Source: a virus
Taxonomy: Duplodnaviria > Heunggongvirae > Uroviricota > Caudoviricetes
IMG/VR virus record: IMGVR_UViG_2870479586_000001
Span: 1-58,638 of that record
DNA: 58,638 nt
Direction: 5' to 3' (one strand)
Positions 27,001-30,000 of the stretch are shown piece by piece. The position numbers are program-made. Each line of letters begins with the position of its first letter. The stretch's first letter is position 1.

Positions 27001-30000
27001 AAAAGGTGAATACCGATGACGATAAGCTTTAACACCATTCCGTCGAATACGCTGGTTCCGTTGTTTTATGCGGAAATGGATAACTCGGCGGCGAATACTG
27101 CACAGGACAGCGGAGCATCGCTGCTGATTGGTCATGCCAATAACGGTGCAGAGATTGTTGCCAACAGTCTGGTACTGATGCCGTCGGCAGACTATGCACG
27201 CCAGATTTGTGGTGCGGGAAGTCAGCTGGCGCGTATGGTCGAGGCTTATCGCCAGACCGACCCGTTTGGTGAGCTGTATGTGATTGCCGTTCCTGAATCC
27301 ACAGGCGCGGCGGCAACGGTTACGCTGACGGTGACCGGGGCGGCAACCGAAACCGGCACGGTGAATGTCTATGTGGGACGTACCCGCGTGCAGGCTCCGG
27401 TGACCAACGGCGATAACGTCACGACGATTGCCAGCAGTATCAAAGATGCCATCAATGCCGTTCCGGCCCTGCCGTTTACAGCTTCATCTTCGGCTGGTGT
27501 TGTCACGCTGACCGCGCGTCATAAGGGGCTTTGCGGGAATGAAATTCCTGTCAGCCTCAATTACTACGGCTTCGGTGGGGGTGAAGTGCTGCCAGCGGGC
27601 GTACAGATTGCCGTGGTGACGGGGACCGCCGGAACGGGCGCTCCGGTTCTCACCGGCGCGGTGGCTGCAATGGCGGATGAGCCGTTTGATTATATCGGTC
27701 TGCCGTTCAACGACACGGCCTCCGTTAACACGCTGGTGACCGAGATGAACGATACCAGCGGTCGCTGGAGCTATGCGCGTCAGCTGTATGGTCATGTGTA
27801 TACGGCAAAGACCGGCACACTGTCAGAACTGGTGACCGCAGGTGACCAGTTTAACCAGCAGCACATCACCCTGGCGGGGTACGAAAAAGAGACCCAGACG
27901 CCTGCCGACGAGCTGGCGGCAAGCCGTACCGCCCGCGCAGCGGTGTTTATCCGCAACGATCCGGCACGTCCCACGCAGACCGGTGAGCTGGTGGGTATGC
28001 TGCCTGCGCCGAAGGGGAAACGGTTCACAATGACCGAGCAGCAGACCCTGCTGTCTCATGGCGTGGCAACGGCGTATGTCGAAAGCGGGGTGCTGCGCAT
28101 TCAGCGTGATGTCACCACGTACAGGAAAAATGCTTACGGGGTTGCGGATAACAGCTACCTCGACAGCGAGACGCTGCATACCAGTGCGTATGTACTGCGC
28201 AAACTGAAATCCGTCATTACCAGTAAGTACGGGCGTCACAAGCTTGCCTGTGACGGTACCCGCTTTGGTCCCGGTCAGGCGATTGTCACCCCGGCGGTGA
28301 TCAAAGGGGAACTGCTGGCAACCTACCGTCAGCTCGAGCGTGCGGGGATCGTGGAAAACTACGAACTGTTCAAGCAGTACCTGGTTGTGGAGCGTGATGC
28401 CAGCGATCCGAACCGCCTGAACACGCTGTTCCCGCCTGACTATGTTAACCAGTTGCGTGTCTTTGCCGTGGTTAACCAGTTCCGTCTTCAGTATTCAGAG
28501 GAGTCTGCATAATGGCCCGTATCGGGGGAACCTGTTATTTCAAAATTGACGGTCAGCAGCTATCGCTGACCGGCGGCATTGAGGTGCCCATGAACAGGAC
28601 GGTCAATGATGACATCATCGGCCTGGACGGTTCAGTGGACCGCAAGGAAACTCACCGTGCGCCTTATGTCAAAGGGACCTTCAAGGTGCCGAAGAATTTT
28701 CCGGTGAGCAAAATCACCTCGTCTGATGAGATGACCATCACTGCCGAGCTGGCGAACGGTCAGGTCTATGTACTGTCGTCTGCCTGGCTGCACGGCGAAG
28801 CGAACCATAATGCCGAAGAAGGCACGGTCGATCTTGAGTTCCACGGTGAAGAAGGGGATTACCAGTAATGAAAGAGCTTGAGTTAAAGAAACCGATTACC
28901 GCTCATGGCGAGACACTCTCCGTACTGGAGTTTGATGAGCCCACCGGGAAAGATGTCCGCGAGCTGGGGTATCCCTACCAGATGAATCAGGATGAGTCCG
29001 TCAGACTTCTGGCGCATGTGGTATCGAAATATATTGTGCGGCTGGCGAAAGTGCCGCAAAGCTCTGTCGACCAGATGTCTCCGGCAGACCTGAATGCAGC
29101 GGCGTGGCTTGTGGCTGGTTTTTTCCTCCAGGCCTGACGGCTGAATACCTTACTGATCGCTTCTTTGATTGCGCCAGCTACTGGCGCATTAATCCCTTCG
29201 AATTGCTGAATATGCCGATCAGTGAAATTCCCTTGCTGGTCAGTCAGGCAAACAGGATAGAGCAGGAGAAACGCACACATGGCTGAATTTGAGCTTAAGG
29301 CGTTGATCACCGGTGTCGACAGGCTTTCTCCCGCGCTGTCGAAAATGCAAAAGAAAATCCGGGGATTTAAACGCCAGGCGGAAGAAGCGTCACAGGGTGG
29401 GCTGGCGCTTGGTGGCGGACTGGCAGCGGGTCTGACGCTTTCCCTGAAATCTTATGCCGATCAGGAAAACGCCGCCACCGGGCTGAAAGTCGCCATGATG
29501 GATGCGAATGGCGAGGTTGGAAAGAGCTTTCAGGACATCAATAAACTGGCTATTGGCCTGGGTAACCAGCTACCCGGTACAACGGCTGATTTCCAGAACA
29601 TGATGCAGATGCTGGTGCGTCAGGGGATCCCGGCAGAAAACATTCTTGGCGGTGTGGGTAAAGCGACAGCTTATCTTGCGGTACAACTGAAAAAAACACC
29701 GGAAGCGGCTGCTGAGTTTGCTGCAAAGATGCAGGATGCTACCGGAACGGCGTCAGAAGACATGATGGGGCTGTTCGACACTATCCAGAAGGCGTTTTAT
29801 CTGGGCGTTGACGATACCAACATGTTGTCCTTCTTCACTAAAACCAGTTCTGTTCTGAAGATGGTGAACAAGGACGGTCTTCAGGCTGCACAGAGCCTTG
29901 CCCCCATCAGCGTCATGATGGATCAGATGGGGATGAACGGGGAGTCGGCAGGTAATGCCCTGCGAAAAGTTATCCAGTCCGGATTAAGCGTTAAGAAAAT

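What the first reader, a model, noticed from the sequence alone, without database searches (positions are those of the whole stretch)
29119..29286. Candidate programmed -1 frameshift in the tail assembly chaperone
The chaperone ORF ends at 29137, 12 nt downstream of the slippery heptamer T-TTT-TTC (29119..29125). The -1 frame is open from there for 54 codons and ends exactly where the tape measure gene begins. This is the conserved G/GT arrangement of tailed phages, here found directly from sequence.
Basis: partly seen in the sequence, partly recalled or inferred. Interest (0 to 1): 0.4.

Follow-up and report, generated by a model that had tools for sequence, protein, structure and literature searches.

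The report
Tail chaperone −1 frameshift, P2-type
This is a well-supported but ordinary example of the ribosomal frameshift that tailed phages use to make a long and a short form of their tail-assembly chaperone, sitting unannotated in an SfV-like prophage found in about a fifth of complete E. coli genomes.

Summary
T_TTT_TTC (29119-29125) lies in phase near the end of an 89-aa chaperone gene (28868-29137, Pfam PF10109). This gene sits between the tail tube gene and the tape measure gene of a Mu-type contractile tail module in an SfV-like prophage. The -1 frame then runs 53 sense codons to a TGA at 29284-29286, 8 nt inside the tape measure gene. The only error is the junction peptide: it is AGFF|PPGL, not AGFF/FPPGL.

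One sequence alone is only suggestive; comparison settles it. About 50 distinct related loci, down to 40% identity, keep GGT-TTT-TT[C/T] in phase and a 49-62-codon -1 extension with a shared motif. The most variable codon position switches from frame 0 to frame -1 exactly at the heptamer. No locus has a start codon between the heptamer and the conserved motif.

Phage P2's proven E/E+E' shift (GGT-TTT-TTG) lies at the same position of the same Pfam domain, with the same 8-nt overlap.

No stimulatory RNA structure or Shine-Dalgarno-like element is conserved. RNA-polymerase slippage on the T6 run cannot be excluded from sequence. No database record examined annotates the fusion.

Verdict: an unannotated new member of a known kind, of low to moderate interest.

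The parts
27016..28512 (+). Tail sheath gene (498 aa), which sets the Mu-type contractile-tail context
   Evidence: Pfam PF04984, PF17482 and PF17481. Annotated as similar to Mu gpL in SfV.
28512..28868 (+). Tail tube gene (118 aa); its TAA stop overlaps the chaperone ATG by 1 nt (TAATG)
   Evidence: Pfam PF10618, E=2.4e-33; sequence read.
28868..29137 (+). Tail assembly chaperone ORF, frame 0 (the 'G'/gpE-like product, 89 aa)
   Evidence: Pfam PF10109 Phage_TAC_7, 60.3 bits against a cutoff of 25. Homologues are almost all 89 aa. 14 of 14 polymorphic sites in this ORF are frame-0 third positions.
29119..29125 (+). Slippery heptamer T_TTT_TTC (X_XXY_YYZ), read as GG[T TTT TTC]
   Evidence: Phase verified. 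Invariant in 17 distinct genome loci and 33 further distinct viral loci, including its three synonymous sites. P2 has GGTTTTTTG at the homologous site.
29125..29286 (+). -1 frame extension (the 'T'/E'-like part): 53 codons plus TGA; base 29125 is read twice
   Evidence: -1-frame third positions are the most variable (0.40-0.43 against 0.12-0.21). Conserved motif F-D-C-A-x-Y-W-R-x-N-P...L-L..Q-A-N-R-I. Matches phrog_32181.
28868..29286 (+). Predicted frameshift fusion product 'GT' (139 aa), joined as 28868..29125 + 29125..29286, with junction ...WLVAGFF|PPGLTAEY...
   Evidence: One search gives the translation. Sizes parallel P2 E (91 aa) and E+E' (142 aa). Expression is inferred and was not observed.
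29264..29268 (+). AGGAG, the likely Shine-Dalgarno sequence of the tape measure gene, 10 nt upstream of its ATG and inside the -1 extension
   Evidence: Read directly from the sequence context printed; its function is inferred.
29279..31111 (+). Tape measure protein gene (610 aa); its ATG overlaps the end of the -1 extension by 8 nt
   Evidence: Pfam PF10145, E=1.3e-26. The overlap ATGGCTGA is shown. P2 has the same 8-nt overlap of E+E' with gene T.

Best explanation
Most ribosomes translating the chaperone gene (28868-29137) finish in frame 0 and make the 89-aa chaperone. A minority slip back one nucleotide on U_UUU_UUC, when the two tRNA-Phe sit on UUU (P site) and UUC (A site) and re-pair with UUU and UUU. 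These ribosomes read 53 further codons in the -1 frame and produce a 139-aa fusion that shares its first 86 residues with the short form.

By analogy with lambda gpG/gpGT and P2 gpE/gpE+E', the shared N-terminal part would coat the tape measure protein. The rarer C-terminal extension would recruit tube subunits to start tail-tube polymerisation, and neither protein would end up in the virion.

Shown here: the anatomy, the conservation of the site and of the -1 ORF, coding selection in the -1 frame starting at the heptamer, the lack of any independent start, and positional homology with the P2 site.

Inferred: that the fusion is made, that the slip is ribosomal, the ratio of the two products, and the protein functions.
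For: (1) Phase and coordinates are verified.
(2) The setting is a Mu-type tail module, ordered sheath, tube, PF10109 chaperone, PF10145 tape measure, DNA-circulation protein, gpP-like hub.
(3) All 17 distinct genome loci (100% down to 40% aa identity, including the betaproteobacterium Derxia) and 33 further distinct viral loci keep GGT-TTT-TT[C/T] in phase. All have a 49-62-codon -1 ORF with a shared motif. In the genome loci, where it was inspected, that ORF ends at or near an ATG that is the likely next-gene start.
(4) In 10 loci aligned without gaps, the most variable codon position is frame-0 position 3 upstream of the heptamer (0.53 against 0.17 and 0.10). Downstream it is -1-frame position 3 (0.43 against 0.21 and 0.13). 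The heptamer's own synonymous sites are invariant. By variable-column counts, chi-square p = 6e-9 for G and 0.015 for the extension.
(5) Within-population polymorphisms follow the same switch.
(6) 10 of 17 loci have no start codon in the -1 frame upstream of the heptamer. No locus has one between the heptamer and the invariant Trp, and 3 loci have none anywhere in the -1 ORF.
(7) P2 gpE matches PF10109 over the same profile span (2-78) as the window protein. P2's annotated frameshift site (GGTTTTTTG) lies at the same end of the domain, and P2 has the same 8-nt overlap with its tape measure gene.
(8) U_UU.U_UU.C is a competent -1 heptamer in E. coli: 0.12% unstimulated and 7.6% with a pseudoknot (PMC4066793).
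(9) P2 likewise lacks a downstream hairpin (PMC3091744).
Against: There is no protein-level evidence. No stimulatory element was found: the local fold has z = -1.2, the consensus fold of 17 loci is -4.35 kcal/mol with no covariation, and no Shine-Dalgarno-like motif lies upstream. The bare heptamer shifted only 0.12% in a reporter, well below the few percent reported for lambda and P2 (PMC5009743), so something in the native context is unexplained. Three of 80 near-identical E. coli contigs carry GGT->GGG in otherwise intact tail modules, so the first T is not absolutely required in every prophage. The site is a homopolymer run, so sequence alone cannot separate ribosomal from RNA-polymerase slippage, and the two routes give the same peptide.
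Confidence: 0.8

Rival explanations
1. The same fusion protein is made, but by RNA polymerase slippage. An extra U inserted in the U6 run puts the downstream sequence into frame, and the resulting protein (AGFFPPGL...) is identical.
For: The site is a homopolymer run in every one of about 50 distinct loci and in P2; no mixed-base heptamer was found in this clade. The conserved GGT lengthens the run from 5 to 6. Contig L044 carries two substitutions that keep six T's, shifted one nucleotide out of the canonical phase. Sharma et al. note that U7 and A7 runs are avoided in all frames, possibly because of transcriptional slippage.
Against: From general knowledge, efficient slippage by bacterial RNA polymerase usually needs runs of about 8-9 or more, and six T's is short. 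The homologous P2 site is described in the literature and annotated as a translational frameshift. Two of the three natural variants have only T5. The phase of the run relative to frame 0 is constant across all the divergent loci, although the conserved G-F-F peptide would impose that anyway.
Confidence: 0.1
2. The -1 ORF is a separate small gene, translated from its own start (GTG at 29104) or by reinitiation. One phage record annotates it this way (60 aa, 'hypothetical protein').
For: A GTG at 29104 opens a 60-codon ORF. ON470584 annotates it as a stand-alone CDS. PHROGs holds a family of such calls, phrog_32181.
Against: 10 of 17 distinct loci have no ATG/GTG/TTG in the -1 frame between its upstream stop and the heptamer. 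No locus has a start between the heptamer and the conserved motif, and 3 loci have none in the whole -1 ORF. No Shine-Dalgarno sequence precedes GTG 29104 (the upstream sequence is acctgaatgcagcggc). The coding signature of the -1 frame begins at the heptamer and not upstream of it.
Confidence: 0.03
3. Nothing is expressed: the 141 nt between the chaperone stop and the tape measure start are a non-coding spacer, and the heptamer plus open frame are coincidence.
For: PGAP and most phage records leave the stretch unannotated. In-phase heptamers are common (about 102 in the window's mechanical ORFs). A 53-codon open -1 frame has about a 3.5% chance on its own.
Against: The frame stays open, and a peptide motif is conserved down to 40% identity in about 50 distinct loci. 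The -1 frame shows third-position periodicity. The heptamer's synonymous sites are invariant, while other frame-0 third positions differ in 53% of pairwise comparisons.
Confidence: 0.01

Closest known systems
Phage P2 gpE / gpE+E' programmed -1 frameshift (Christie et al. 2002, cited via PMC3091744; annotated in NC_001895)
   Same: Both chaperones match the same Pfam family (PF10109) over the same profile span, with the slip site at the same end of the domain. The context is nearly the same: GGT TTT TTG against GGT TTT TTC, encoding G-F-L against G-F-F. Product sizes are 91 and 142 aa against 89 and 139 aa. Both have an 8-nt overlap of the extension with the tape measure ATG. Both sit between the tube and tape measure genes of a contractile tail. 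Neither has a downstream hairpin.
   Different: The last base of the heptamer differs (C against G). The extension is not recognised by P2's E' model PF06528, and the profile comparison gives only weak, collinear similarity (P=0.004, probability 9%). The rest of the tail module here is Mu-type (DNA-circulation protein, gpP-like hub) and not P2-type.
Phage lambda gpG / gpGT (Levin et al. 1993; Xu, Hendrix & Duda 2004, 2013, 2014; summarised in PMC5009743)
   Same: The logic is the same: a short chaperone plus a rarer -1-extended form, encoded just upstream of the tape measure gene, with a bare slippery heptamer as the main signal.
   Different: No detectable sequence similarity. Lambda uses G_GGA_AAG and has a non-contractile tail. 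The protein roles (G binds the tape measure, T binds the tube protein, ratio about 30:1) were shown for lambda and are only inferred here.
Phage Mu gp41 (Mup41) and its -2 frameshift (Xu et al. 2004, cited via PMC2628397)
   Same: The tail module type and gene order are the same: L sheath, M tube, gp41, tape measure, N, P. A gap of about 140 nt before the tape measure gene is covered by an alternative frame. Mu gp41 has a weak PF10109 match (24.7 bits).
   Different: Mu gp41 is 144 aa and belongs to PF23746, which the window protein does not hit. Mu is reported to shift by -2, and its sequence has a G-rich stretch instead of a T run near the end of gene 41. The extension similarity is weak (hhalign P=0.0015, probability 17%).

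Membership tests
G/GT-type tail assembly chaperone frameshift of long-tailed phages (Xu, Hendrix & Duda 2004) | The gene pair lies between the major tail (tube) gene and the tape measure gene | tested here: met
   Tube 28512-28868 (PF10618), chaperone 28868-29137, tape measure 29279-31111 (PF10145).
G/GT-type tail assembly chaperone frameshift of long-tailed phages (Xu, Hendrix & Duda 2004) | [quoted passage not shown] | tested here: met
   T_TTT_TTC at 29119-29125, 9 nt before the stop codon. Conserved in about 50 distinct loci.
G/GT-type tail assembly chaperone frameshift of long-tailed phages (Xu, Hendrix & Duda 2004) | The downstream ORF is in the -1 frame, overlaps the upstream ORF, has no start of its own, and is under coding selection | tested here: met
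   No start codon in 10 of 17 loci upstream of the heptamer, and none before the motif in any locus. The wobble phase switches at the heptamer.
G/GT-type tail assembly chaperone frameshift of long-tailed phages (Xu, Hendrix & Duda 2004) | Both the short and the frameshift-extended proteins are produced, at a fixed low ratio | not testable with these tools
   Needs western blot, mass spectrometry or a reporter assay. Only the reporter value for the bare heptamer is available (0.12%, PMC4066793 supplement).
G/GT-type tail assembly chaperone frameshift of long-tailed phages (Xu, Hendrix & Duda 2004) | Both products are required for tail assembly and are absent from mature virions | not testable with these tools
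   Needs genetics and virion proteomics.
Pfam PF10109 Phage_TAC_7 (P2 gpE, Mu gp41, 'gp14') | HMM score above the curated gathering threshold | tested here: met
   60.3 bits against a cutoff of 25; residues 4-86 match profile positions 2-78 of 79. P2 gpE scores 47.5 bits over the same span.
Pfam PF06528 Phage_P2_GpE (the E' extension of P2) | The HMM matches the -1 extension | tested here: not met
   No hit at E<=10 for the extension or the fusion, while P2 E+E' scores 76.3 bits. hhalign of the extension profile against P2 E' gives P=0.004, probability 9%, collinear. Distant homology is possible but not shown.
Mu gp41 family (Pfam PF23746) with -2 frameshift | PF23746 match and a -2 (+1) frame extension | tested here: not met
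   The window protein hits only PF10109. Its extension is in the -1 frame, and the other alternative frame is full of stops.
Stimulated bacterial -1 PRF signals (dnaX, IS3/IS911 type) | A downstream hairpin or pseudoknot 5-9 nt from the heptamer, and/or an upstream Shine-Dalgarno-like element | tested here: not met
   Fold z = -1.2. RNAalifold consensus is -4.35 kcal/mol with covariation +0.16. The only recurrent hairpin is about 45 nt downstream, overlaps the C-A-x-Y-W-R codons, and is broken in distant loci. No GGAG/AGGA lies within 17 nt upstream.

The most novel reading that the evidence does not exclude
The SfV-lineage and P2 sites may reach useful GT levels through a stimulator that is neither an RNA structure nor a Shine-Dalgarno-like element. 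One candidate is the nearly invariant nascent peptide just before the slip (D-L-N-x-A-x-W-x-V-A-G-F-F); another is the immediate flanking context. Alternatively, part of the shift may be RNA-polymerase slippage on the T6 run. This would explain an apparent discrepancy. A heptamer that shifts only about 0.12% in a neutral reporter serves a system whose relatives are reported to shift by several percent. And no structure is conserved across about 50 loci.
Probability: 0.2. Interest if true: 0.45.

Novelty: new member of a known kind. Interest (0 to 1): 0.2.

Why it matters
The main value is for annotation. The chaperone region occurs in 1104 of 5426 complete E. coli genomes and in the Shigella serotype-converting phages SfV, SfI and SfII. 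Every record examined either leaves a 141-nt gap or calls a spurious stand-alone ORF. An essential tail-assembly product is therefore probably missing from the proteomes of this phage lineage.

There are two smaller points. Mu-type tail modules use at least two recoding modes, -1 on a T run here and -2 in Mu. And the P2-type site is conserved at the nucleotide level far beyond the P2-like phages. The lack of any conserved stimulator makes this family a clean place to ask what sets the efficiency of 'bare' heptamers in their native context.

Tried and rejected
(1) The contiguous 'fusion' proteins P0001-P0006 from the protein search are singleton assemblies with scattered indels and garbled junctions. 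They look like sequencing or assembly errors and are not evidence for natural fusions.

(2) Downstream RNA stimulator: the single-sequence fold is not significant and the alignment fold shows no covariation. The GCGCCAGnTACTGGCGC hairpin is too far away (about 45 nt), coincides with conserved codons, and is broken in distant loci.

(3) Minus-strand ORF 28987-29310: its third positions would fall on rel%3=0, but the variable phase in the extension is rel%3=2. Rejected.

(4) Solved structures by sequence: only spurious light-harvesting-complex hits.

(5) I looked for mixed-base heptamers in distant relatives, to rule out transcriptional slippage as a family-wide mechanism. All 33 extra loci also use T runs, so the test was uninformative.

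(6) Xu et al. 2004, Christie et al. 2002 and the SfV genome paper are not held in the library. I therefore could not check whether SfV was already listed in Xu et al.'s tables. The SfI, SfII and SfIV genome papers never use the word frameshift.

(7) Structure prediction was not run. Only the window's own sequence and database hits can be submitted, so a proper alignment of GT fusions could not be supplied, and Pfam membership already answers the family question.
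Full report
WHAT IS THERE

The window carries an SfV/SfI/SfII-like prophage of E. coli/Shigella. The 1.3-kb region around the finding is 98-99% identical to those phages. It is present in 1104 of 5426 complete E. coli genomes.

The local genes form a Mu-type contractile tail module:
- sheath, 27016-28512 (PF04984, PF17482, PF17481)
- tube, 28512-28868 (PF10618)
- an 89-aa PF10109 'Phage_TAC_7' chaperone, 28868-29137
- tape measure protein, 29279-31111 (PF10145)
- a DNA-circulation protein and a gpP-like baseplate hub, further downstream

CHECKING THE OBSERVATION

One search confirms every coordinate.
- TTTTTTC occupies 29119-29125, phased as GG[T TTT TTC], which is a canonical X_XXY_YYZ heptamer.
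- The frame-0 stop codon starts 9 nt after the heptamer, and the ORF ends at 29137.
- After a -1 slip, the ribosome would read 29125-29283 (53 codons) and stop at TGA 29284-29286.
- That stop lies 8 nt inside the tape measure gene, whose ATG is at 29279.
- The predicted fusion is 139 aa, with the junction ...WLVAGFF|PPGLTAEY....

No slip mode or U insertion gives three Phe.

IS IT MORE THAN CHANCE?

In one sequence, barely. The window's mechanical ORFs of at least 80 aa hold about 102 in-phase heptamers, and a handful of these extend in -1. The -1 frame of the neighbouring tail genes has 75 stops per 1226 codons, so 53 open codons have about a 3.5% chance.

The comparative data decide the question.
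- A scan of species-representative genomes gave 20 loci, 17 of them distinct, from 100% down to 40% protein identity. They include Edwardsiella, Pantoea, Erwinia, Kosakonia and the betaproteobacterium Derxia.
- Every one keeps GGT-TTT-TT[C/T] in phase. Every one has a 50-59-codon -1 ORF that ends at or within a few nucleotides of an ATG, the likely start of the next gene.
- Two further scans with distant queries added 33 distinct viral loci. All have the same run and a 49-62-codon extension.
- The extensions share the motif [FY]-D-x-A-x-[YF]-W-x-x-x-P...L...A-x-R-I.
- In contrast, the frame-0 tail after the heptamer varies freely in length and sequence (1 to 14 sense codons; LQA, LGTSTPSGS, MASAAPTPTSPQGS).

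WHICH FRAME IS UNDER SELECTION

Ten loci align without gaps around the heptamer.
- Upstream, mean pairwise difference per site is 0.53 at frame-0 third positions, against 0.17 and 0.10 at the other two positions.
- Downstream of the frame-0 stop, the peak moves to -1-frame third positions (0.43 against 0.21 and 0.13).
- The switch happens in the 30-nt window that starts at the heptamer.
- Variable-column counts give chi-square p = 6e-9 for the chaperone body and 0.015 for the extension.
- The three synonymous sites inside GGT-TTT-TTC never vary, although other frame-0 third positions differ in about half of pairwise comparisons.
- The overlapping minus-strand ORF (28987-29310) would put its wobble positions in the wrong phase, so it is not supported.

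Polymorphisms among 80 near-identical E. coli viral contigs show the same pattern. All 14 variable sites in the chaperone body are frame-0 third positions. The recurrent variable sites in the extension are -1-frame third positions.

RIVAL: AN INDEPENDENT GENE

One phage record annotates a stand-alone 60-codon ORF from GTG 29104, and PHROGs holds such calls as phrog_32181. The evidence is against this.
- 10 of 17 distinct loci have no ATG/GTG/TTG in the -1 frame between its upstream stop and the heptamer.
- No locus has a start between the heptamer and the invariant Trp of the motif.
- Three loci (Erwinia, Enterobacter, Derxia) have no start anywhere in the -1 ORF.

The conserved peptide can therefore only be reached from the chaperone's own reading frame.

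COMPARISON WITH KNOWN CASES

P2 is the closest parallel.
- P2's annotated E/E+E' pair (NC_001895) reads ...GTC GGT TTT TTG TCG..., encoding V-G-F-L. Here the sequence is ...GCT GGT TTT TTC CTC..., encoding A-G-F-F.
- Both chaperones match PF10109 over profile positions 2-78 of 79, and the match ends at the slip site. The sites are therefore positionally homologous.
- The products are 91 and 142 aa in P2, against 89 and 139 aa here.
- In both, the extension overlaps the tape measure ATG by 8 nt.
- P2 shifts at TTTTTTG and has no downstream hairpin (PMC3091744).

The extension here is not recognised by P2's E' model PF06528. Profile comparison gives only weak, collinear similarity to P2 E' (P = 0.004) and to Mu's alternative-frame extension (P = 0.0015), with low probabilities.

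Mu has the same tail module, but its gp41 is 144 aa in family PF23746 and it is reported to shift by -2 (PMC2628397). So this is a Mu-type tail that uses a P2-type recoding site.

MECHANISM

U_UU.U_UU.C is one of the heptamers that shift in E. coli without any stimulator. It gives 0.12% alone, 0.89% with the IS911 stimulators and 7.6% with the IS3 pseudoknot. P2's UUUUUUG gives 0.12% alone (PMC4066793 and its supplement).

I found no stimulator here.
- The local fold has z = -1.2.
- The consensus fold of 17 loci is -4.35 kcal/mol with no covariation.
- The one recurrent hairpin lies about 45 nt downstream, overlaps the C-A-x-Y-W-R codons, and is broken in distant loci.
- No Shine-Dalgarno-like element lies upstream of the heptamer.

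Lambda's G:GT ratio is about 30:1, and P2's shift efficiency is reported to be 2-3 fold higher than lambda's (PMC5009743). What raises efficiency in the native context is therefore unexplained.

Because the site is a homopolymer, RNA-polymerase slippage that inserts one U would give the identical protein. Sequence alone cannot exclude this, and no relative with a mixed-base heptamer was found that could settle it.

Three of the 80 E. coli contigs carry T29119G (GGT->GGG) in otherwise intact tail modules. One of them also has C29125T, which keeps six T's but out of phase. These variants leave a U_UUC or U_UUU tetramer, which Sharma et al. rank just below A_AAG among tetramers.

ANNOTATION STATUS AND NOVELTY

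None of the records examined annotates a joined CDS. This covers RefSeq E. coli (PGAP), SfV in GenBank and RefSeq, Pantoea AH07, Salmonella F1055 and vB_EcoM-689R6. The SfI, SfII and SfIV genome papers never mention a frameshift.

Xu et al. 2004 state that sites could be identified for most long-tailed phages. I could not read that paper, so SfV may already be listed there.

The phenomenon and this exact type of site are well known. This instance is an unannotated new member of a known kind.

VERDICT

My confidence that a GT-type fusion is made by recoding at the T run is about 0.9. That splits into about 0.8 for ribosomal -1 slippage and 0.1 for transcriptional slippage.

Interest is 0.2. It is useful for annotation. 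It also leaves one modest open question: how these 'bare' T-run sites reach useful efficiency.

Noticed in passing
window 31112-31788 (ORF 31203-31733, + strand): A 677-bp low-GC insert (34-35% GC against 51-58% in the flanks) lies between the tape measure and DNA-circulation genes. It carries a 176-aa ORF with a hydrophobic N-terminus and no Pfam or PADLOC hit. It is absent from all sequenced SfV-like phage records. It is present at >=99% identity in 179 of 5426 E. coli genomes, always annotated as 'hypothetical protein'. This is a moron-like cargo gene inside the tail operon; its function is unknown.
   Followed up: partly
window 3177-6393 vs 48518-51367; 10879-11431 vs 51368-51920; 14171-15359 vs 57066-58254: Direct repeats 0.5-2 kb long at 94-98% identity, about 43-45 kb apart. 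This suggests that two related lambdoid early/late regions, possibly neighbouring prophages, share the window.
   Followed up: no
L044, L075, L081 (equivalent to window 29119 and 29125): Natural variants of the slippery site occur in otherwise intact tail modules. T29119G (GGT->GGG) arose on at least two haplotypes. L044 also has C29125T, which keeps a T6 run one nucleotide out of the canonical phase. These would be useful natural mutants for a reporter assay.
   Followed up: partly
L042 (IMGVR_UViG_2541047860_000003), equivalent to window ~29215 onward: This contig diverges from the window inside the -1 extension, and the -1 frame then runs on for about 510 codons into unrelated sequence. It is either a rearrangement, insertion or assembly chimera at this point.
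   Followed up: no
L001 (E. coli KSC1031, NZ_CP019560.1), locus 2380-4213: In this 100%-identical copy of the chaperone region, PGAP marks the tape measure gene as a 'frameshifted' pseudogene. In the window the gene is intact at 610 codons.
   Followed up: no
13 of the 80 IMG/VR loci L024-L103 (equivalent to window 29279-29292): A subset of E. coli contigs has a 55-codon extension ending ...THGGI instead of ...THG. The stop/start overlap with the tape measure gene is therefore remodelled in some lineages.
   Followed up: no
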